A stretch of 36,691 nucleotides of DNA from a virus (lineage: Duplodnaviria > Heunggongvirae > Uroviricota > Caudoviricetes). Position numbers and translations under genes: made by a program. Below are positions 5,208 through 27,524 of this stretch, one piece after another; within the stretch, counting starts at the first letter, position 1, and each line of letters starts with the position of its first letter. The notes below the pieces were generated by a model. That model had not been told where the DNA came from. It ran no database searches and was given only the letters and a program-made list of their open reading frames with translations. The stretch lies in the IMG/VR virus record IMGVR_UViG_2718218358_000002; one strand, written 5' to 3'.

Positions 5208-5479
5208 GTATTCGTATTGAAATTGGCGAACGTTATGTCGTTACCAGTGACAGCTTTCAGTTTATTCTCCACGAGAAAAAGAGAGCGGAAAGCGGTAAAA
5301 ACGCCGGTCAGGAATGGCTGTCGGTGGTTGGTTATTACCCGAAATTAAGCCAGCTCGTTTCCGGCATGATGCATCACGATATTCTGACCGGAAGCGCAAA
5401 GTCTTTTGCTGATTTAAACGCGCAGGTTGAGCAACTCAGCAAGCGTTGTTCAGAGGCTTTTGGCTCATATGGCCGTTAA
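5204..5479 (+). CDS. Early hypothetical protein (P2 orf83 position), 91 aa
   Basis: ORF overlapping the start of A. Confidence 0.6.
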   Translation: MSIRIEIGERYVVTSDSFQFILHEKKRAESGKNAGQEWLSVVGYYPKLSQLVSGMMHHDILTGSAKSFADLNAQVEQLSKRCSEAFGSYGR

Positions 5480-7721
5480 AGCCTCCGGGCGTTTTGTCCC
5501 TCCATCAGCATTTGCCGCAGGCACCGGTAAGGCGTTTACCGGTGCTTATGCATGGAACGCGCCACGCGAGGCTGTCGGGCGCGAAAGACCCCTTACACGT
5601 GACGAGATGCGTCAGGTGCAAGGTGTTTTATCCACGATTAACCGCCTGCCTTACTTTTTGCGCTCGCTGTTTACTTCACGCTATGACTACATCCGGCGCA
5701 ATAAAAGCCCGGTGCACGGGTTTTATTTCCTCACATCCACTTTTCAGCGTCGTTTATGGCCGCGCATTGAGCGCGTGAATCAGCGCCATGAAATGAACAC
5801 CGACGCGTCGTTGCTGTTTCTGGCAGAGCGTGACCATTATGCGCGTCTGCCGGGGATGAATGACAAGGAACTGAAAAAGTTTGCCGCCCGTATCTCATCG
5901 CAGCTTTTCATGATGTATGAGGAACTCTGCGATGCATGGGTTGATGCACATGGCGAGAAAGAATCGCTGTTTACGGATGAGGCTCAGGCGCATCTGTATG
6001 GTCATGTTGCTGGCGCTGCACGAGCTTTCAATATTTCCCCTCTCTACTGGAAAAAATACCGTAAAGGACAGATGACCACGAGGCAGGCATATTCTGCCAT
6101 TGCCCGTCTGTTTAACGATGAGTGGTGGACTCATCAGCTTAAAGGTCAGCGTATGCGCTGGCATGAGGCGTTACTGATTGCTGTCGGGGAGGTGAATAAA
6201 GACCGTTCTCCTTATGCCAGTAAACATGCCATTCGTGATGTGCGTGCGCGCCGCCAGGCAAATCTGGAATTTCTTAAATCGTGTGACCTTGAAAACAGGG
6301 AAACCGGCGAGCGCATCGACCTTATCAGTAAGGTGATGGGAAGTATTTCTAATCCTGAAATTCGCCGGATGGAGCTGATGAACACCATTGCCGGTATTGA
6401 GCGTTACGCCGCCGCAGAGGGTGATGTGGGGATGTTTATCACGCTGACCGCGCCGTCAAAGTATCACCCGACACGTCAGGTCGGAAAAGGTGAAAGTAAA
6501 ACCGTCCAGCTAAATCACGGCTGGAACGATGAGGCATTTAATCCAAAGGATGCGCAGCGTTATCTCTGCCGCATCTGGAGCCTGATGCGCACGGCATTCA
6601 AGGATAATGATTTACAGGTCTACGGTTTGCGTGTCGTCGAGCCACACCACGACGGAACGCCGCACTGGCATATGATGCTTTTTTGTAATCCACGTCAGCG
6701 TAACCAGATTATCGAAACCATGCGTCGCTACGCGCTCAAAGAGGATGGCGACGAAAGAGGAGCCGAGCGAAACCGTTTTCAGGCGAAACACCTTAACCGG
6801 GGCGGTGCTGCGGGGTATATCGCGAAATACATTTCAAAAAATATCGACGGCTATGCACTGGATGGTCAGCTCGATAACGATACCGGCAGACCTCTGAAAG
6901 ATACTGCCGCGGCTGTTACTGCATGGGCGTCAACGTGGCGCATCCCGCAATTTAAAACGGTTGGTCTGCCGACAATGGGGGCTTACCGTGAACTACGCAA
7001 ATTGCCTCGCGGCGTCAGCATTGCTGATGAGTTTGACGAACGCGTCGAGGCTGCACGCGCTGCCGCAGACAGTGGCGATTTTGCGTTGTATATCAGTGCG
7101 CAGGGTGGGGCAAATGTTCCGCGCGATTGCCAGACTGTCAGAGTCGCCCGTAGCCCGTCGGATGAAGTTAACGAGTACGAGGAAGAAGTCGAGAGAGTGG
7201 TCGGCATTTACGCGCCGCATCTCGGCGCGCGTCATATTCATATCACCAGAACGACGGACTGGCGCATTGTTCCGAAAGTTCCGGTCGTGGAGCCTTTAAC
7301 TTTAAAAAGCGGCATCGCCGCGCCTCGGAGTCCTGTCAATAACTGTGGAAAGCTTACCGGTGGTGATTCTCCGGTTATGACCCCCACACCGTCTGAGCAA
7401 GCCACAGCTGTGTTAAATCTGATTGATAAAGGAGTGATTGGTTGGGATGAGCCGGATGTTATAAAGGTGCTTAACGGCGCGTTAAACGCTGGTGCGCCTC
7501 AAAAAAGCAGCCAACAAAGAAATGCAGCATCGCTCAAACCTGCTGAACAGACGCCATCAGCCAGGCTTACCAAAGCGGAGAGGGAGCGGATACCAAAAAT
7601 TCGATTTGATTTGGTTCAGAAAGATATTGTTCCTGAGTGGTGGGAGCTTGAGGTTCTTGCTCGGGGAGCGAAAGTGCATTTTGGATATAAAGTATTCAAA
7701 TATCACAATAATGATAAATAG
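5469..7721 (+). CDS. A: Replication initiation protein A (rolling-circle nickase), 750 aa from ATG 5469
   Basis: Begins MAVKASGRFVPPSAF as I recall P2 A; the ORF-track start at 5427 is a TTG extension; contains the HWHMMLF-type motif region expected for the rolling-circle nickase; the last about 60 aa look divergent from P2 A as I remember it. Confidence 0.85.
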   Translation: MAVKASGRFVPPSAFAAGTGKAFTGAYAWNAPREAVGRERPLTRDEMRQVQGVLSTINRLPYFLRSLFTSRYDYIRRNKSPVHGFYFLTSTFQRRLWPRIERVNQRHEMNTDASLLFLAERDHYARLPGMNDKELKKFAARISSQLFMMYEELCDAWVDAHGEKESLFTDEAQAHLYGHVAGAARAFNISPLYWKKYRKGQMTTRQAYSAIARLFNDEWWTHQLKGQRMRWHEALLIAVGEVNKDRSPYASKHAIRDVRARRQANLEFLKSCDLENRETGERIDLISKVMGSISNPEIRRMELMNTIAGIERYAAAEGDVGMFITLTAPSKYHPTRQVGKGESKTVQLNHGWNDEAFNPKDAQRYLCRIWSLMRTAFKDNDLQVYGLRVVEPHHDGTPHWHMMLFCNPRQRNQIIETMRRYALKEDGDERGAERNRFQAKHLNRGGAAGYIAKYISKNIDGYALDGQLDNDTGRPLKDTAAAVTAWASTWRIPQFKTVGLPTMGAYRELRKLPRGVSIADEFDERVEAARAAADSGDFALYISAQGGANVPRDCQTVRVARSPSDEVNEYEEEVERVVGIYAPHLGARHIHITRTTDWRIVPKVPVVEPLTLKSGIAAPRSPVNNCGKLTGGDSPVMTPTPSEQATAVLNLIDKGVIGWDEPDVIKVLNGALNAGAPQKSSQQRNAASLKPAEQTPSARLTKAERERIPKIRFDLVQKDIVPEWWELEVLARGAKVHFGYKVFKYHNNDK

Positions 7722-7812
7722 GGGTGTGATTTCACTTCTTGTAAGTAGTAACATCAGAAGATTTCGATTACCGTTTGTCTTATTAGTTGCGTTTAAAAAG
7801 AGGTATTTTTAG

Positions 7813-9285
7813 ATGGTTGAAAATTTGAGTGAGATTAGAACATCGACCGTGAATGCATTGTTAGAGAAGGTAAGGCAGAATAATTATGGGAAGTATCTGT
7901 TAAAAGCTAAAATTGGGCGAATTCGCGGATTTTCGGGAGAAGATATTACTTTTGAATTTCCTGTTACAGCCTTGGTTGGTCCTAATGGTAGTGGAAAATC
8001 CTCTGTTCTCGGCGTTGCAGGATGTGCCTATAAAGAAATTAAGCCTAGCGTTTTCTTTCCCAAAAGTGCAATTGGTGATGAAAGCATGGCGGGGTGGAAA
8101 GTTGAATATGATATAATTGATAAAGTTATTAATCCTCGACAAACAGTTCGCAGAACTAGTAGTTTTAGAAGCGCTAAATGGGCGAGAGATGAAGTATTAT
8201 CTAGAGATGTATATTTCTTTGGTATCGAACGGACTGTCCCTGCTGGCGAGAAGACAAAGTACAAAAAGTTAACCCGTTCCTCTTACCAACATACAGGCAG
8301 TTTATCAACGTTGAGTGCAAATGTCGCAAAACAAATAGAACATATTTTGGGCAAGGATGTGTCTGCTTTTAATGTGACAGATATTGGCCATGATGAAAAG
8401 TTTTTTGTAGGCAATAATAATGGTAGCCGTTATTCTGAATTCCATTTTGGTGCGGGTGAGTCATCAATTATAAGAATGGTTTCTGAGATAGAGAATGCAT
8501 CTGATAACAGTTTGGTTCTTATTGAAGAAATTGAAAATGGGCTGCATCCGGTAGCAACGAGACGAATGGTCGAATATCTAATTGATGTTGCCAGTCGTAA
8601 ATCAATTCAGGCTGTTTTTACCACACATAGTGATTATGCCCTGATGCCATTACCACAGGAAGCAATATGGGCATGTATTGATGGACGTCTTAGAAAAGGA
8701 CGGTTAACTGTTGAATCTTTAAGGGCTATATCTGGTAGGGTTGACAAAAAATTAGCTATCTTTGTTGAGGATGAGTTTGCTAAATGCTGGGTTGATACTA
8801 TTCTTCGGGAAAGATTAGGTAGTGATTATGATCAATTAGAAGTACATGCCGTCGCTGGCGATGGAAATGCTGTATCTATTCATAAGTCACACAAGGCAAA
8901 TCCTTCAATTAAATTTAAATCGCTTTGTATTATTGACGGAGATTCTTCACAAGAAGATAGTGATGAAAATGGTGTCTTTAGATTGCCGGGGACTCAACCT
9001 GAACGTAGTGTATTCGATGACATACTTGTGAAAATTGATAATATATTGGCAATACTTACTGTTTCTTGCCAACTGCCTCCAGAATCTCAAGGTAAAGTGA
9101 GAACAGTGGTTGAATCTGTTTCAAGAACGAATCGAGATCCCCATCTTATTTTTAATCAAATAGGCATGGAATTAGGCTTCATTTCAGAAGTGATTATTCG
9201 GGGTGCATTTTTAAGCCTTTGGGCAAGGCAAAATGAAGATTATTGTAGTGATTTAGTAAACAAAGTTAAGGCCCTTCTGGATTGA
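7813..9285 (+). CDS. ABC-type ATPase with C-terminal TOPRIM-like domain (OLD/PARIS-like candidate defence protein), 490 aa
   Basis: Walker A GPNGSGKSS; Walker B/D-loop LVLIEEIENGLHP; H-loop FTTHS; C-terminal IFVEDEF glutamate and CIIDGDS DxD motifs of a TOPRIM fold; AT-rich; occupies the P2 tin/old position between A and cos; own RBS AAAGAGG. Confidence 0.7.
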   Translation: MVENLSEIRTSTVNALLEKVRQNNYGKYLLKAKIGRIRGFSGEDITFEFPVTALVGPNGSGKSSVLGVAGCAYKEIKPSVFFPKSAIGDESMAGWKVEYDIIDKVINPRQTVRRTSSFRSAKWARDEVLSRDVYFFGIERTVPAGEKTKYKKLTRSSYQHTGSLSTLSANVAKQIEHILGKDVSAFNVTDIGHDEKFFVGNNNGSRYSEFHFGAGESSIIRMVSEIENASDNSLVLIEEIENGLHPVATRRMVEYLIDVASRKSIQAVFTTHSDYALMPLPQEAIWACIDGRLRKGRLTVESLRAISGRVDKKLAIFVEDEFAKCWVDTILRERLGSDYDQLEVHAVAGDGNAVSIHKSHKANPSIKFKSLCIIDGDSSQEDSDENGVFRLPGTQPERSVFDDILVKIDNILAILTVSCQLPPESQGKVRTVVESVSRTNRDPHLIFNQIGMELGFISEVIIRGAFLSLWARQNEDYCSDLVNKVKALLD

Positions 9286-9299
9286 TTAGCACTTTGTGG

Positions 9300-9334
9300 A
9301 GATCTGGAGGATTTTCTCCAGATCTTATTATTTG
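9300..9334 (+). terminator. Rho-independent terminator after the ATPase-TOPRIM gene
   Basis: 10-bp stem AGATCTGGAG/CTCCAGATCT (9300-9309 with 9316-9325), short loop, then TTATTATTT. Confidence 0.6.
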
Positions 9335-9462
9335 AGTCATGTATTACTAGGTTGCATCTATTTGCATTTGTTTTTGATGTCATTCTGTACCTTTTTTGTC
9401 AGGCCTGACGTGGTTTCAGATTACTGAGGCACTTGCATCAAAACCGCCCCATGAAGCGGGCG

Positions 9463-9481
9463 GGCGAGGCGGGGAAAGCAC
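9463..9481. other. cos site (19-nt cohesive end GGCGAGGCGGGGAAAGCAC)
   Basis: Exact match to the P2 19-nt cohesive-end sequence as I recall it, in the expected position between the old locus and Q. Confidence 0.7.
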
Positions 9482-9651: not shown

Positions 9652-10686
9652 TCAGCCGTTGTCAGTGTCCAGTGAGTAGTTTTTAAAGCGGATGACCTCC
9701 TGACCGAGCCAGCCGTTTATCTCGCGGATCCTGTCCTGTAACGGGATAAGCTCATTGCGGACAAAGACCTTTGCCACTTTCTCAATATCACCCAGCGACC
9801 CGACGTTCTCCGGCTTGCCGCCCATCAACTGAAAGGGGATGCGGTGCGCGTCCAGCAGGTCAGCGGCGCTGGCTTTTTTGATATTAAAAAAATCGTCCTT
9901 CGTTGCCACTTCACTGAGCGGGATAATTTTAATGCCGTCGGCTTTCCCCTGTGGGGCATAGAGAAACAGATTTTTAAAATTATTGCGGCCTTTCGACTTC
10001 ACCATGTTTTCGCGAAGCATTTCGATATCGTTGCGATCCTGCACGGCATCGGTGACGTACATGATGTATCCGGCATGCGCGCCGTTTTCGTAATACTTGC
10101 GGCGGAACAGCGTGGCCGACTCATTCAGCCAGGCAGAGTTAAGGGCGCTGAGATATTCCGGCAGGCCGTACAGCTCCTGATTAATATCCGGCTCCAGCAG
10201 ATGAAACACGGAGCCGGGCGCGAAGGCTGTCGGCTCGTTGAAGGACGGTACCCACCAGTAAACATCCTCCTCCACGCCACGGCGGGTATATTTTGCCGGT
10301 GAGGTTTCCAGTCTGATGACCTTACCGGTGGTGCTGTAACGCTTTTCCAGAAACGCATTACCGAACACCAGAAAATCCAGCACAAAGCGGCTGAAATCCT
10401 GCTGGGAAAGCCACGGATGCGGGATAAATGTCGAGGCCAGAATATTGCGTTTGACGTAAATCGGGGAGCTGTGATGCACGGCAGCACGCAGACTTTTTGC
10501 CAGGCCGGTAAAGCTGACCGGTGGCTCATACCATCTGCCGTTACTGATGCACTCGACGTAATCCAGAATGTCACGGCGGTCGAGTACCGGCACCGGCTCG
10601 CCAAAGGTGAATGCCTCCATTTTCGGGGCGCTGGCAGTCATTGTTTTCACCGCTGGCTGCGGTGTTTTCCCTTTTTTCTTGCTCAT
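9652..10686 (-). CDS. Q: Portal protein Q, 344 aa
   Basis: 344 aa as in P2 Q; first gene of the leftward QP operon next to cos. Confidence 0.9.
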   Translation of the reverse strand: MSKKKGKTPQPAVKTMTASAPKMEAFTFGEPVPVLDRRDILDYVECISNGRWYEPPVSFTGLAKSLRAAVHHSSPIYVKRNILASTFIPHPWLSQQDFSRFVLDFLVFGNAFLEKRYSTTGKVIRLETSPAKYTRRGVEEDVYWWVPSFNEPTAFAPGSVFHLLEPDINQELYGLPEYLSALNSAWLNESATLFRRKYYENGAHAGYIMYVTDAVQDRNDIEMLRENMVKSKGRNNFKNLFLYAPQGKADGIKIIPLSEVATKDDFFNIKKASAADLLDAHRIPFQLMGGKPENVGSLGDIEKVAKVFVRNELIPLQDRIREINGWLGQEVIRFKNYSLDTDNG

Positions 10687-18940: not shown

Positions 18941-20014
18941 TTACTTTCCATTTTTTAATGAATTGATTAACGATGCTATTTGCTCAATGCCATCAAATGT
19001 AGATGGTATCTTATCATCGGATAGCATGATGTTTGAAAATACTACGTCTTCGAATTTTGAAAGCGCTTCCGGATTGTTTTTCCTTATCTCTGAGGAATAG
19101 TCGCTATAACTCTGAATGAACTGACAAAGGCTCTTTCTGAGTTCTATTTGCATAATCTGAGTTCGTAACGATATATGATTTAGCAGTACAACTCTAAAGT
19201 AATACATGAAAATCAATGTAACTGATGCAAAAGGTAGTGCTGACATAAAATATGTGGCAGCATTTGTCGTTTCGAGAGCTGGTAATTTATGCATTCCATA
19301 GTATATCAGCGGGGAGGGAATGATTATAGCCAAGATGATAAGAATTATTCTTGATAGCATGATTTCACTTTCTTTCTTTTTGCCAAGTGAATTAAAGCCT
19401 TCAAACAATCCAACAAAATTAAATGCGACCTCATACCCTTTTAATGACTCTTTGATTGACTCTATTTTGGCATGTTGCTCCTTTAAGAAGGAGTCGCACT
19501 TTTCGAAAAATTGACGCCCTTCGTTTAAACTATCAATGTATTTTTTATATGTGTCAACATTGCTGGAGCTTAAAACTTCTTTAACCATTGCTAATGGCAG
19601 TTCTCTAAGAGAAAAGTCTATCTGTGCTCTGCTCCGCTCATCGAATTCATTATAGTTATACAGAGCAAAATCCTTGATGGTTCTTAGTGGTGAAAAGTGA
19701 GACTCTATTTCCGGAGAGAGAATGCTTGGTTCAATGATAAATCTAAAAAAGCAAGTGAATATAAGGTTGATGCTGTTGTTATCTTCTCCCTTTTCTCTTA
19801 AGAAACTTTTAAAGGTGTCGCCAATCATAGCAATGTTGTACTGGGATTTTTTGTCCCAATCTTCAGGGTTTTCGGAAATGAAGTTTATTGCTTGAGCAAT
19901 TATTTTGTTTCTGCTTGATTCAAAGTTTGTGCCGGGAGTCAGCGTGTTCAAAAAGACCAGATAATCTTTGAACAATTCTTTCATTGTTTCTGACGAGAAA
20001 AAGTAAGTACTCAT
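18941..20014 (-). CDS. Hypothetical membrane-anchored protein, 357 aa from ATG 20014 (cytoplasmic N-domain, two C-proximal TM helices); accessory gene at the S/V (P2 orf30) locus
   Basis: Minus-strand ORF in strongly AT-rich DNA between S and V; two hydrophobic helices (LSRIILIILAIIIPSPLIYYG and ATYFMSALPFASVTLIFMYYFRVVLL); the ORF-track start at 20110 would overlap V, so ATG at 20014 (or 19984) is preferred. Confidence 0.65.
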   Translation of the reverse strand: MSTYFFSSETMKELFKDYLVFLNTLTPGTNFESSRNKIIAQAINFISENPEDWDKKSQYNIAMIGDTFKSFLREKGEDNNSINLIFTCFFRFIIEPSILSPEIESHFSPLRTIKDFALYNYNEFDERSRAQIDFSLRELPLAMVKEVLSSSNVDTYKKYIDSLNEGRQFFEKCDSFLKEQHAKIESIKESLKGYEVAFNFVGLFEGFNSLGKKKESEIMLSRIILIILAIIIPSPLIYYGMHKLPALETTNAATYFMSALPFASVTLIFMYYFRVVLLNHISLRTQIMQIELRKSLCQFIQSYSDYSSEIRKNNPEALSKFEDVVFSNIMLSDDKIPSTFDGIEQIASLINSLKNGK

Positions 20015-20100
20015 AATGGATTTTGTTGTCCCTTGTTGTTCTGTGCACCAGAAATCGTGGTGTGATTTACTTCGAGATTGTACAGAATCATTATTATCGA

Positions 20101-20730
20101 ATGAATGCACAATACAATGAAATTCTTCGCTTTATACGCAATATGATTCGCACTGGCATTATCGTCGAAACCGACCTTAATGCCGGTCGCTGCCGTGTGC
20201 AGACCGGCGGCATGTGCACCGACTGGCTTCAGTGGCTGACCCATCGCGCCGGTCGTTCGCGCACATGGTGGGCACCTTCCGTGGGGGAACAGGTGCTGAT
20301 TCTGGCCGTGGGCGGTGAACTCGACACGGCGTTCGTTCTGCCGGGGATTTATTCCGGCGATAACCCCGCGCCGTCGGCGTCGGCGGATGCCCTGCATATC
20401 CGTTTCCCTGACGGGGCGGTGATTGAGTATGAACCTGAAACCAGTGCACTCACGGTAAGCGGAATTAAAACGGCCAGCGTGACGGCTTCTGATTCTGTTA
20501 CTGCCACGGTGCCGGTGGTCATGGTGAAAGCATCAACCCGCGTCACCCTGGACACACCGGAGGTGGTCTGCACCAACAAGCTGATTACCGGCACGCTGGA
20601 AGTGCAGAAGGGCGGGACGATGCGCGGCAACATTGAACACACCGGCGGTGAACTTTCATCAAACGGGAAGGTACTGCATACCCATAAACACCCCGGCGAC
20701 AGCGGCGGCACAACCGGGAGTCCTCTATGA
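20101..20730 (+). CDS. V: Baseplate spike protein V, 209 aa
   Basis: ATG at 20101 (MNAQYNEIL); size near P2 V. Confidence 0.85.
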   Translation: MNAQYNEILRFIRNMIRTGIIVETDLNAGRCRVQTGGMCTDWLQWLTHRAGRSRTWWAPSVGEQVLILAVGGELDTAFVLPGIYSGDNPAPSASADALHIRFPDGAVIEYEPETSALTVSGIKTASVTASDSVTATVPVVMVKASTRVTLDTPEVVCTNKLITGTLEVQKGGTMRGNIEHTGGELSSNGKVLHTHKHPGDSGGTTGSPL

Positions 20731-25457: not shown

Positions 25458-27461
25458 ATGATTATGAGTGAAAATGATACAACCCCAAAGAAGTCTACAA
25501 GCCAGGTTAACAAAGCGGTATTCTTTACATCTGCTTTGCTAATTTTCCTTCTTGTCGCCTTTGCCGCCGTATTCCCGGATGTCGCCGACAAAAATTTTAA
25601 ACTACTTCAGCAACAAATCTTCACGAATGCCAGCTGGTTCTACATACTTGCTGTGGCCCTGATTTTACTGAGCGTCACGTTCCTTGGACTCTCACGTTAC
25701 GGTGATATAAAGCTGGGCCCAGACCATGCGCAGCCTGATTTCAGCTACCACTCCTGGTTCGCGATGCTTTTTTCGGCAGGGATGGGGATCGGCCTGATGT
25801 TCTTTGGCGTTGCCGAACCTGTGATGCATTATCTTTCGCCACCTGTCGGCACTCCAGAGACCGTTGCGGCAGCGAAGGAAGCCATGCGCCTGACGTTCTT
25901 CCACTGGGGTCTGCACGCATGGGCAATTTATGCCATCGTGGCGCTGATTCTGGCCTTTTTCAGTTACCGTCACGGTCTGCCTTTAACGCTGCGTTCTGCG
26001 CTCTATCCCATTATCGGCGATCGCATTTACGGGCCTATAGGCCACGCGGTTGATATCTTCGCCGTGATAGGCACTGTCTTTGGCGTTGCAACATCGCTGG
26101 GTTACGGTGTATTGCAGGTGAATGCCGGTTTGAACCATCTTTTCGGCGTGCCCATCAATGAAACGGTACAGGTCATTTTGATCGTGGTCATCACGGGGTT
26201 AGCGACGATTTCGGTGGTGTCCGGCCTGGACAAGGGAATACGCATCCTGTCTGAGCTTAATCTGGGCCTGGCGGTGTTGCTCCTGGCGCTGGTCTTGTGC
26301 CTGGGTCCCACTGTGCTTCTGCTGAAGTCATTTGTGGAAAATACGGGTGGTTATCTGTCGGAACTGGTGAGTAAAACGTTCAACCTTTACGCGTATGAAC
26401 CCAAGTCGAGCAACTGGCTGGGGGGCTGGACATTATTATACTGGGGATGGTGGCTTTCATGGTCGCCGTTTGTAGGTATGTTCATTGCACGCGTTTCCCG
26501 CGGCAGGACAATTCGTGAGTTCGTGACTGGCGTGTTGTTTGTTCCCGCCGGCTTTACGCTCATGTGGATGACGGTGTTTGGAAACAGCGCCATCTATCTC
26601 ATCATGAACCAGGGCGCCACTGACCTCGCCAATACCGTTCAGCAGGATGTTGCGCTTGCCCTGTTTAATTTCCTGGAGCATTTCCCGTTCTCTTCCGTGC
26701 TGTCATTCATTGCAATGGCGATGGTCATCGTCTTCTTTGTAACGTCTGCTGATTCGGGGGCAATGGTTGTGGATACTCTGGCATCAGGTGGGGTGGCAAA
26801 CACGCCCGTCTGGCAGCGAATTTTCTGGGCATTGCTCATGGGCGTTGTTGCTATTGCCCTGCTGATCGCAGGGGGGCTGAGTGCGTTGCAAACCGTAACG
26901 ATAGCGAGTGCATTGCCCTTCTCAGTTATCTTATTAATATCCATATACGGACTGTTAAAAGCCCTGCGTCGGGATTTGACCAAGCGTGAAAGCCTTAGCA
27001 TGGCGACTATTGCTCCTACGGCTGCACGTAACCCAATTCCCTGGCAGAGAAGGTTACGCAATATCGCGTATTTGCCGAAGCGCTCTCTTGTGAAACGTTT
27101 TATGGACGACATTATCCAACCCGCCATGACGCTGGTTCAGGAGGAACTTAACAAGCAGGGAACGATAAGCCACATCAGTGACGCCGCCGAGGATCGTATT
27201 CGCCTTGAAGTCGATTTGGGCAACGAGCTGAATTATATATATGAAGTGAGGCTTCGCGGGTATAACTCACCGACCTTCGCGCTCGCTGCGCTGGATAATG
27301 ATGAGCAGCAGAGTGAACAACATCGATATTATCGCGCTGAAGTCTATCTCAAAGAGGGCGGCCAAAATTATGATGTAATGGGCTGGAATCAGGAACAGCT
27401 GATTAATGACATACTGGACCAGTACGAAAAACACCTGCACTTCCTGCATCTGGTTCGTTAA
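25458..27461 (+). CDS. BCCT-family transporter, BetT-like (choline/betaine-type), 667 aa; prophage cargo
   Basis: BCCT signature WTLLYWGWWLSWSPFVG; about 12 TM helices; C-terminal cytoplasmic tail ending QEQLINDILDQYEKHLHFLHLVR, resembling the E. coli BetT tail as I recall it; located in the G-FI variable region. Confidence 0.75.
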   Translation: MIMSENDTTPKKSTSQVNKAVFFTSALLIFLLVAFAAVFPDVADKNFKLLQQQIFTNASWFYILAVALILLSVTFLGLSRYGDIKLGPDHAQPDFSYHSWFAMLFSAGMGIGLMFFGVAEPVMHYLSPPVGTPETVAAAKEAMRLTFFHWGLHAWAIYAIVALILAFFSYRHGLPLTLRSALYPIIGDRIYGPIGHAVDIFAVIGTVFGVATSLGYGVLQVNAGLNHLFGVPINETVQVILIVVITGLATISVVSGLDKGIRILSELNLGLAVLLLALVLCLGPTVLLLKSFVENTGGYLSELVSKTFNLYAYEPKSSNWLGGWTLLYWGWWLSWSPFVGMFIARVSRGRTIREFVTGVLFVPAGFTLMWMTVFGNSAIYLIMNQGATDLANTVQQDVALALFNFLEHFPFSSVLSFIAMAMVIVFFVTSADSGAMVVDTLASGGVANTPVWQRIFWALLMGVVAIALLIAGGLSALQTVTIASALPFSVILLISIYGLLKALRRDLTKRESLSMATIAPTAARNPIPWQRRLRNIAYLPKRSLVKRFMDDIIQPAMTLVQEELNKQGTISHISDAAEDRIRLEVDLGNELNYIYEVRLRGYNSPTFALAALDNDEQQSEQHRYYRAEVYLKEGGQNYDVMGWNQEQLINDILDQYEKHLHFLHLVR

Positions 27462-27468
27462 CAGCAAC

Positions 27469-27497
27469 ATGCCGCCACAGAGGCGGCATTTATTTAT
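27469..27497 (+). terminator. Rho-independent terminator after the BetT-like gene
   Basis: ATGCCGCC-ACAGA-GGCGGCAT 8-bp stem followed by TTATTTAT. Confidence 0.65.
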
Positions 27498-27524
27498 CCC
27501 GGCTGCAATATGAGGGAATGCAGA

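What the first reader, a model, noticed from the sequence alone, without database searches (positions are those of the whole stretch)
7722..9335. P2 tin/old locus carries a compact ATPase-TOPRIM fusion (OLD/PARIS-like) instead of tin/old
Between A and cos, where P2 has tin and old, there is one AT-rich gene (7813-9285) for a 490-aa protein. It has an ABC-ATPase core (Walker A GPNGSGKSS, Walker B LIEEIENGLHP, H-loop FTTHS) and a C-terminal region with TOPRIM-like E (FVEDEF) and DxD (IIDGDS) motifs. This architecture is shared by OLD-family nucleases and fused PARIS (AriA-AriB), but the protein is about 100 aa shorter than P2 Old (586 aa as I recall). It is a strong candidate single-gene anti-phage system and may be an uncharacterised subtype.
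Basis: partly seen in the sequence, partly recalled or inferred. Interest (0 to 1): 0.7.

Follow-up and report, generated by a model that had tools for sequence, protein, structure and literature searches.

The report
Known HEC-04 defence gene in P2 prophage
The gene is real and encodes an ATP-driven nuclease that protects bacteria from viruses, but a protein differing by one amino acid has already been tested under the name HEC-04, so it is a correct call rather than a discovery.

Summary
One low-GC gene (7813-9285, 490 aa) lies between the P2-type replication gene A and cos.

The architecture reading is right. The N-terminal half is an ABC-type ATPase. The C-terminal half folds as an OLD/AriB-type TOPRIM nuclease domain plus a helical bundle.

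The "uncharacterised subtype" reading is wrong. The protein matches PADLOC model HEC-04 over its full length (E=2.9e-225). It differs by one residue (N14T) from the E. coli MOD1-EC5853 protein that Payne et al. (bioRxiv 2024.01.29.577857) cloned. That protein defended against phages, and K62A and E319A/D375A/D377A abolished defence.

The tested copy sits at the same P2 A-Q hotspot. Rousset et al. 2022 already list this exact protein (WP_028985815) there.

It is not P2 Old, because only ATPase motifs are shared. It is not PARIS by sequence, because no AriB/DUF4435 profile matches.

Novelty: already known. Interest: low.

The parts
7722..7812 (+). Intergenic leader between the stop codon of gene A and the defence gene. 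GC is 0.33, and an AGAGG ribosome-binding site lies at 7799-7803, 9 nt before the ATG.
   Evidence: Sequence read; GC. The simple sigma-70 scan found no promoter here, so the promoter is unresolved.
7813..9285 (+). HEC-04 gene: a 490-aa single-chain ABC ATPase-TOPRIM nuclease (RefSeq WP_028985815.1, annotated 'ATP-dependent nuclease').
   Evidence: ORF. PADLOC HEC-04 E=2.9e-225 over residues 6-489. One residue differs from the tested HEC-04. RefSeq annotation.
7813..8697 (+). N-terminal ABC-type ATPase domain, residues 1-295. It contains the Walker A motif GPNGSGKSS (nt 7978-8004, K62), the signature-like FGAGESS, the Walker B/D-loop LIEEIENGLHP (nt 8518-8550) and the H-loop FTTHS (nt 8617-8631).
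8698..9282 (+). C-terminal TOPRIM nuclease core (about residues 310-395) followed by a six-helix bundle (about residues 396-489). The metal-binding acidic residues are E319 in FVEDEF (nt 8761-8778) and D375/D377 in IIDGDS (nt 8929-8946). An invariant TNRDPH motif lies at residues 439-444.
9299..9326 (+). Terminator-like hairpin with a perfect 12-bp stem, starting 14 nt after the stop codon and followed by a U-rich stretch.
   Evidence: Terminator scan. RNA fold -19 kcal/mol, z=-3.5 against shuffles.
7722..9433 (.). The whole low-GC cargo module at the P2 A-Q (cos-proximal) hotspot.
   Evidence: GC is 0.33-0.38 against 0.53-0.62 in the flanks. Nucleotide similarity to P2 resumes at 9434. P2-like phages match from about 9429-9435.
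9463..9481 (+). The cos 19-mer, identical to the P2 right cohesive end. It marks the right edge of the hotspot.
   Evidence: Exact match to P2 cosR.
5469..7721 (+). Flanking gene A (replication endonuclease), the left border of the hotspot.
   Evidence: RefSeq annotation. 92% protein identity to P2 A.
9652..10686 (-). Flanking gene Q (portal), the right border of the hotspot.
   Evidence: ORF. RefSeq annotates it as 'phage portal protein'.

Best explanation
**What it is.** The gene encodes HEC-04, a single-protein anti-phage defence system. A P2-like prophage of E. coli carries it as lysogenic-conversion cargo at the cos-proximal A-Q hotspot, where P2 itself carries tin and old.

**Proposed mechanism.**
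- The N-terminal ABC-type ATPase acts as the nucleotide-dependent sensor or switch.
- On infection it licenses the fused C-terminal TOPRIM domain.
- That domain uses E319, D375 and D377 to bind metal and cut nucleic acid, which stops phage production.

**Shown by others, for a protein differing only at N14T.**
- It defends E. coli against several coliphages.
- Defence is lost in K62A and in E319A/D375A/D377A.
- Induced over-expression is toxic.

**Shown here.**
- Its identity with that protein.
- The domain folds.
- Conservation of the catalytic residues.
- Single-gene organisation in every context examined.

**Inferred.**
- The order of events, sensor then effector.
- The substrate, whether DNA as in OLD/GajA or tRNA as in AriB.
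- An abortive-type outcome.
For: **Identity.**
- The PADLOC HEC-04 model matches at E=2.9e-225 over the full length.
- The tested HEC-04 is WP_044502283 from E. coli MOD1-EC5853, NZ_NOAS01000001 621132-622604.
- The protein encoded at that place (P0001) differs from the window protein only at N14T.
- K62, E319, D375 and D377 lie at the same positions.

**Function, from the literature.**
- Payne et al. report a reduction in plaquing efficiency of several orders of magnitude.
- They also report loss of defence in both mutants and toxicity with IPTG.

**Folds.**
- The N-terminal half is an ABC ATPase head.

**Location.**
- All 8 E. coli places shown lie between gpA and the portal gene of P2-like prophages.
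- Rousset et al. list WP_028985815 as a single-gene arrangement at this hotspot.
- They describe the hotspot as a reservoir of defence systems.

**Single-gene mobility.** Homologues of 66-88% identity occur alone in several settings:
- a 186-like prophage at the same hotspot in Serratia
- a lambdoid prophage in Leclercia
- a Mu-like prophage in Aeromonas
- a Burkholderia P2-like phage
- a Variovorax chromosome

Nucleotide similarity to these is confined to the ORF.
Against: - Defence was not tested for this exact allele (N14) or from the prophage's own context and copy number.
- No promoter was found in the 91-nt leader by the simple scan, so expression in the lysogen is assumed rather than shown.
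- The TOPRIM assignment has almost no sequence-profile support. No Pfam TOPRIM or DUF4435 hit appears for this protein or for 17 relatives. No PDB sequence is hit with a C-terminal profile. The only match is a weak one to the PADLOC model named 'ATPase-Toprim_I-B', E=0.009.
- The assignment therefore rests on a predicted structure, the conserved acidic residues and the published mutants.
- No nuclease activity, substrate or trigger has been shown for any HEC-04 protein in the papers I could read.
Confidence: 0.93

Rival explanations
1. [quoted passage not shown] In that case it would act as an ATP-stimulated DNA exo/endonuclease that excludes lambda-like phages.
For: - It occupies the same locus as P2 old.
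- It has the same domain order, ABC ATPase then TOPRIM.
- The best Foldseek hit of the full model is the Class 1 OLD of Thermus scotoductus (E=1e-12).
- Payne et al. aligned its metal site with Burkholderia OLD.
Against: - BLASTP against P2 Old finds only ATPase motif blocks, 30% over 100 aa at E=6e-6, and nothing in the TOPRIM half.
- P2 Old hits the PADLOC Old model at 1.3e-214. That model is absent from the 25 best hits of this protein.
- It is 96 aa shorter than P2 Old.
- It is transcribed in the opposite direction to P2 old.
- According to the IbfA paper's summary, HEC-04 protected against T4 and T5 but not lambda. P2 Old excludes lambda.
Confidence: 0.1
2. It is a fused PARIS system (AriA-AriB in one chain). 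The ATPase part would sense a phage anti-restriction protein such as Ocr, and the TOPRIM part would then cleave host tRNA and cause abortive infection.
For: - PARIS is known to occur as a single-gene fusion.
- In the distant relative IbfA, phage DNA replication was unaffected while late gene expression and viability fell. That pattern fits an RNA target better than a DNA target.
Against: - No DUF4435 or AriB profile match appears for the whole protein (Pfam), the C-terminal region (Pfam and PADLOC) or 18 family members (Pfam).
- The two PADLOC 'AriA' models that hit cover only the generic AAA_15/AAA_21 region.
- PADLOC separates HEC-04 from PARIS.
- According to the IbfA paper's summary, HEC-04 did not protect against T7. 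T7 is the Ocr-carrying trigger phage of PARIS.
- IbfA is only about 24% identical to this protein, so its phenotype may not transfer.
Confidence: 0.2
3. It is a housekeeping or phage-lifecycle ATPase, for example an SMC/RecF-like DNA-handling factor used by the prophage, and not a defence gene.
For: - The gene lies directly downstream of the replication gene A on the same strand.
Against: - It is absent from P2 and from nearly all P2-like phages.
- Only 11 of 5426 complete E. coli genomes carry it.
- Its low GC marks it as foreign cargo.
- It occurs in unrelated prophage types and alone in chromosomes.
- Defence has been shown directly for the near-identical protein.
Confidence: 0.02

Closest known systems
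HEC-04 (Hma-embedded candidate 04; PADLOC PDLC04149; Payne et al., bioRxiv 10.1101/2024.01.29.577857)
   Same: - Full-length HMM match, and 489/490 identity to the tested protein.
- The same catalytic residues at the same positions.
- The same 1473-nt gene.
- The same P2 A-Q prophage locus as the strain the tested gene came from.
   Different: - One conservative substitution, N14 here and T14 in the tested protein.
- The paper presents the family as embedded in Hma systems. Searches of its main text for 'prophage', 'P2-like' and 'hotspot' found nothing.
P2 Old and Class 1 OLD-family nucleases (Thermus scotoductus OLD, PDB 6p74)
   Same: - Single polypeptide with an N-terminal ABC ATPase and a C-terminal TOPRIM carrying a Glu and a DxD metal site.
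- A phage-exclusion role.
- For P2 Old, the same prophage locus.
   Different: - No sequence similarity outside the ATPase motifs.
- 96 aa shorter than P2 Old.
- No match to the Old profile among the 25 best hits.
- A different reported phage range.
PARIS (AriA ABC ATPase plus AriB TOPRIM/DUF4435 tRNA nuclease, PDB 8v46/8ux9), including its fused form
   Same: - ABC ATPase paired with a TOPRIM effector.
- Carried by P2/P4-type mobile elements next to cos.
   Different: - No AriB/DUF4435 sequence-profile match.
- The oligomeric state and the trigger are unknown.
- No tRNA cleavage has been shown.
IbfA of IncI1 plasmids R64/pUA1135 (PMC12111858)
   Same: - ATPase-TOPRIM single protein of about 520 aa.
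- It hits the HEC-04 model (an IbfA-like plasmid protein scores 1e-32).
- It gives abortive-type interference with phages.
   Different: - Only about 24% identity over 79% of the length.
- Plasmid-borne and part of an operon.
- A different phage range, P22-like phages.
Gabija GajA, and PADLOC's 'ATPase-Toprim_I-B' model (which I recall, untested, as the retron type I-B effector; the Eco8 OLD nuclease of PDB 9lp9 is a related solved structure)
   Same: - ABC ATPase-TOPRIM chain.
- Structural hits.
- PADLOC ATPase-Toprim_I-B scores E=1.4e-15 over residues 52-398.
   Different: - No GajB helicase gene beside it.
- No reverse transcriptase gene beside it.
- No Rfam RNA family in the window.

Membership tests
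HEC-04 (PADLOC PDLC04149) | Full-length match to the family profile | tested here: met
   E=2.9e-225, 746.5 bits, residues 6-489 against profile positions 4-489 of 494. The C-terminal half alone scores 1.4e-73.
HEC-04 (PADLOC PDLC04149) | Walker A lysine and TOPRIM Glu/Asp/Asp shown to be essential (K62, E319, D375, D377) | tested here: met
   All four residues are present at identical positions. K62, E319 and D375 are invariant and D377 is at least 90% conserved in 30 homologues.
HEC-04 (PADLOC PDLC04149) | Single-gene system with no obligatory partner gene | tested here: met
   It stands alone between A and cos here. It also stands alone in five other genomic contexts with unrelated neighbours.
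HEC-04 (PADLOC PDLC04149) | Anti-phage activity | not testable with these tools
   It was shown by Payne et al. for the protein that differs at N14T only. It has not been shown for this allele.
OLD family (P2 Old, Class 1) | N-terminal ABC ATPase plus C-terminal TOPRIM fold with an acidic metal site | tested here: met
OLD family (P2 Old, Class 1) | Sequence membership, meaning the Old profile or detectable similarity to P2 Old beyond ATPase motifs | tested here: not met
   BLASTP finds only Walker A and Walker B blocks. PADLOC Old is not among the 25 best hits, while P2 Old scores 1.3e-214 on it. No TOPRIM-type Pfam family of any kind matches.
PARIS (AriA/AriB, incl. fused form) | AriB-type DUF4435/TOPRIM effector recognisable by profile | tested here: not met
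   No DUF4435 hit appears at E<=1 for the whole protein or at E<=10 for 18 C-terminal domains. No PADLOC AriB model hits the C-terminal half at E<=10.
PARIS (AriA/AriB, incl. fused form) | Structural similarity of the effector domain to AriB | tested here: met
PARIS (AriA/AriB, incl. fused form) | Triggered by anti-restriction proteins; cleaves tRNA | not testable with these tools
   No data exist for HEC-04 in the papers searched.
Gabija (GajA/GajB) | Adjacent GajB UvrD-like helicase gene | tested here: not met
   The neighbours are the replication gene A and the portal gene Q, with no helicase.
Retron type I-B (ATPase-TOPRIM effector) | Adjacent reverse transcriptase and retron non-coding RNA | tested here: not met
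   No reverse transcriptase gene is annotated or seen as an ORF nearby. No Rfam family is found in the window.

The most novel reading that the evidence does not exclude
HEC-04 could be a single-chain functional analogue of PARIS. Its TOPRIM-plus-helical domain resembles the tRNA nuclease AriB at least as much as the DNA nuclease OLD. On activation it would cut host or phage tRNA, or another RNA, rather than DNA, and so arrest translation.

This would explain two published observations:
- In the distant relative IbfA, phage DNA replication proceeds while late functions fail.
- Over-expression of HEC-04 is toxic.

The substrate and trigger of HEC-04 are unreported in the papers I could search.
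Probability: 0.25. Interest if true: 0.5.

Novelty: already known. Interest (0 to 1): 0.15.

Why it matters
As a discovery it matters little. The exact protein was already tabulated at the P2 hotspot.

Two modest points are worth keeping:
- **Prophage origin of the tested gene.** The HEC-04 tested by Payne et al., found by 'guilt by embedding' in Hma systems, comes from the P2 A-Q hotspot. The family also travels as a one-gene cargo in P2/186-like, lambdoid and Mu-like prophages. This links two separate catalogues of defence genes.
- **Open mechanism.** Trigger and substrate are unknown, and the effector domain looks as much like the tRNA nuclease AriB as like the DNA nuclease OLD. That gives a concrete, cheap experiment.

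Tried and rejected
1. **P2 Old or Tin identity.** Rejected. BLASTP against Old finds only ATPase motifs. tblastn of Tin, Old and Orf91 against the window finds nothing meaningful.
2. **Near-identical DNA in sequenced phages.** None found. Only the flanking A and cos/Q DNA matches P2-like phages. The only phage-borne homologue is a split gene in Burkholderia phage phiE094.
3. **Sequence-profile proof of TOPRIM.** This failed.
   - Pfam gives no hit on the C-terminal half or on 18 family members.
   - A C-terminal profile against all PDB sequences gives only noise at E>0.1.
   - PADLOC gives only the HEC-04 model itself and a weak ATPase-Toprim_I-B hit.
4. **Stand-alone or differently fused versions of the C-terminal domain.** phmmer against 1.84 billion representatives gave only 179 hits.
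   - The full-length hits carry the domain at about residues 293-490.
   - The many short hits may be gene fragments or stand-alone domains; this was not checked. No link to AriB or OLD emerged.
5. **Own promoter in the 91-nt leader.** The consensus scan found none, so this is unresolved.
6. **Retron or other RNA partner.** No Rfam family and no tRNA occurs in the window.
7. **Later mechanistic papers on HEC-04 or IbfA.** None beyond the two cited were found in the held library.

Full report

Yes. The window carries one long ORF at 7813..9285 on the + strand, with an ATG start and 490 aa. An AGAGG ribosome-binding site lies 9 nt upstream (sequence). A perfect 12-bp hairpin at 9299-9326 follows it. 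That hairpin folds at -19 kcal/mol, z=-3.5 against shuffles.

- Walker A GPNGSGKSS, residues 56-64
- LIEEIENGLHP, residues 236-246
- FTTHS, residues 269-273
- FVEDEF, residues 317-322
- IIDGDS, residues 373-378

The segment 7722-9433 has GC 0.33-0.38, against 0.53 in gene A and 0.56-0.62 in cos/Q.

The window is 100% identical across the queried interval (7722-9335) to a P2-like prophage of E. coli S10, NZ_CP010229.1. That prophage is integrated between yegR and yegQ. The gene lies between the replication gene A (92% protein identity to P2 A) and the P2 cos 19-mer at 9463-9481. P2 has orf91, tin and old at this place, and Old is 586 aa as recalled. No tin or old homologue exists in the window.

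**2. What is it?**

*Sequence profiles.* Pfam detects only the ATPase half: AAA_21 at 9e-18 and AAA_15 at 3e-16. PADLOC gives an overwhelming full-length match to HEC-04: E=2.9e-225, residues 6-489 against profile positions 4-489 of 494. PHROGs gives phrog_3940, function unknown. NCBIfam gives nothing above its cut-offs.

*What HEC-04 is.* It is one of the 'Hma-embedded candidate' systems of Payne et al. (bioRxiv 10.1101/2024.01.29.577857). [quoted passage not shown] It reduced plaquing of several coliphages. It lost activity in K62A and in E319A/D375A/D377A. It was toxic on IPTG induction.

*Identity with the tested protein.*
- The paper's Table S2 gives the tested gene as E. coli MOD1-EC5853, NZ_NOAS01000001 621132-622604, 1473 nt.
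- Over the 399 residues visible there, the window protein differs only at N14T.
- The protein encoded at that very place (P0001) differs from the window protein at N14T only, over all 490 residues.
- K62, E319, D375 and D377 are at identical positions.

*Location of the tested copy.* It lies between gpA and the portal gene of a P2-like prophage, as do all 8 E. coli places returned. Rousset et al. 2022 (PMC9122126) defined this A-Q locus as a defence hotspot. Their Table S5A lists this exact accession, WP_028985815, as a single-gene 'AAA_15/AAA_21/AAA_23' arrangement.

**3. Structure**

The full-length AlphaFold model from a 30-sequence alignment has pLDDT 77.7.
- The best Foldseek hit in the PDB is the Class 1 OLD nuclease of Thermus scotoductus (E=1e-12). 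PtuA and GajA follow.

GajA (6.4) and the retron Eco2 (Ec67) protein (5.8), described in the literature as an RT-Toprim fusion, follow. The TOPRIM call is thus supported by fold, by invariant acidic residues and by the published mutants.

Sequence profiles do not support the call:
- no Pfam TOPRIM or DUF4435 hit for this protein or 17 relatives
- no PDB sequence hit with a C-terminal profile
- only a weak PADLOC hit to ATPase-Toprim_I-B, E=0.009

**4. Family and contexts**

More than 2,283 homologues were found. The 120 best are mostly 488-500 aa and 66-100% identical, and come from Gamma- and Betaproteobacteria and other groups. The C-terminal domain has only 179 representative clusters. In full-length proteins it sits at about residues 293-490.

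The gene is rare in E. coli: 11 of 5426 complete genomes, all chromosomal, all at least 99.8% identical.

Relatives stand alone in several contexts:
- a 186-like prophage at the same A-Q hotspot in Serratia
- a lambdoid prophage in Leclercia
- a Mu-like prophage in Aeromonas
- next to the integrase of Burkholderia phage phiE094, where the gene is split in two
- among metabolic genes in Variovorax

Nucleotide similarity to these is limited to the ORF. It behaves as a self-sufficient one-gene cargo.

**5. How it most likely works**

- **Shown in the literature for the N14T variant:** defence needs the Walker A lysine and the TOPRIM acidic triad, and over-expression is toxic.
- **Shown here:** the folds, the conservation and the absence of any partner gene.
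- **Inferred:** the ABC ATPase senses infection and, depending on ATP, licenses the fused metal-dependent nuclease.

**6. Comparison and membership**

- **HEC-04:** member. All testable criteria are met.
- **P2 Old:** not a member. Only Walker A and Walker B blocks align. The PADLOC Old model, which P2 Old hits at 1.3e-214, is not among the 25 best hits of this protein.
- **PARIS:** not a member by sequence, since no AriB/DUF4435 profile matches. It resembles fused PARIS in architecture and effector fold.
- **Gabija and retron I-B:** excluded, because the helicase or RT/ncRNA partner is missing.

**7. Verdict**

Those experiments have already been done on a protein one residue away, and the locus placement is already tabulated.

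- Novelty: already known.
- Interest: low (0.15).
- Residual value: the link between the 'Hma-embedded' HEC-04 and the P2 hotspot, its spread across prophage types, and the open substrate question raised by the AriB-like effector fold.

Noticed in passing
window 25458-29752: A second cargo island lies between the tail-fibre assembly gene (ends 25142) and the tail sheath gene (starts 30089). From memory, this is the position of Z/fun in P2.

It holds three genes:
- a BCCT betaine/carnitine/choline transporter (25458..27461, Pfam E=3e-199)
- a DUF2254 membrane protein (27510..28802)
- a 269-aa ORF on the minus strand (28943..29752) in a region of GC about 0.33-0.39, with no Pfam or PADLOC hit

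A full-size osmolyte transporter inside a P2-type prophage is unusual cargo.
   Followed up: partly
window 18941-20110 (-): A low-GC ORF (about 0.36) lies on the opposite strand between the tail-completion genes and baseplate gene V. From memory, this is the position of orf30 in P2. It is 389 aa as listed, and RefSeq calls it as 347 aa. It has no Pfam or PADLOC match.
   Followed up: partly
L005 2647-3654 (E. coli MOD1-EC5853 prophage): The prophage that supplied the tested HEC-04 carries an extra 335-aa PAPS-reductase-family gene (PF01507) just upstream of gene A. The window prophage lacks it. This is another variable slot in these phages.
   Followed up: no
L002 2328-5677 (Burkholderia phage phiE094): The 66.5%-identical HEC-04 homologue in this P2-like phage is annotated as two overlapping CDS, which suggests a frameshift or an inactivated gene. 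A 570-aa protein annotated as cytidine/deoxycytidylate deaminase follows it directly, next to the integrase.
   Followed up: no
L013/L014, L015, L016, L017: HEC-04 relatives of 68-88% identity occur as lone genes in unrelated mobile contexts:
- a lambdoid prophage between dinI and a DNA methylase gene in Leclercia
- a 186-like prophage at the A-Q hotspot in Serratia
- between tail genes of a Mu-like prophage in Aeromonas
- among metabolic genes in Variovorax

DNA similarity is confined to the ORF.
   Followed up: yes
window 7813-9285 vs Payne et al. 2024: The HEC-04 representative tested in that preprint was found through embedding in Hma systems. It actually comes from the P2 A-Q hotspot. Searches of the preprint's main text for 'prophage', 'P2-like', 'hotspot' and 'AriB' found nothing.
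   Followed up: yes
window 9129-9144 (residues 439-444, TNRDPH): The motif T-N-R-D-P-H in the C-terminal helical bundle is invariant or nearly invariant, with T439, R441, D442 and H444 invariant. It lies outside the TOPRIM core and has no assigned role. It could be a substrate-binding or second catalytic element.
   Followed up: no
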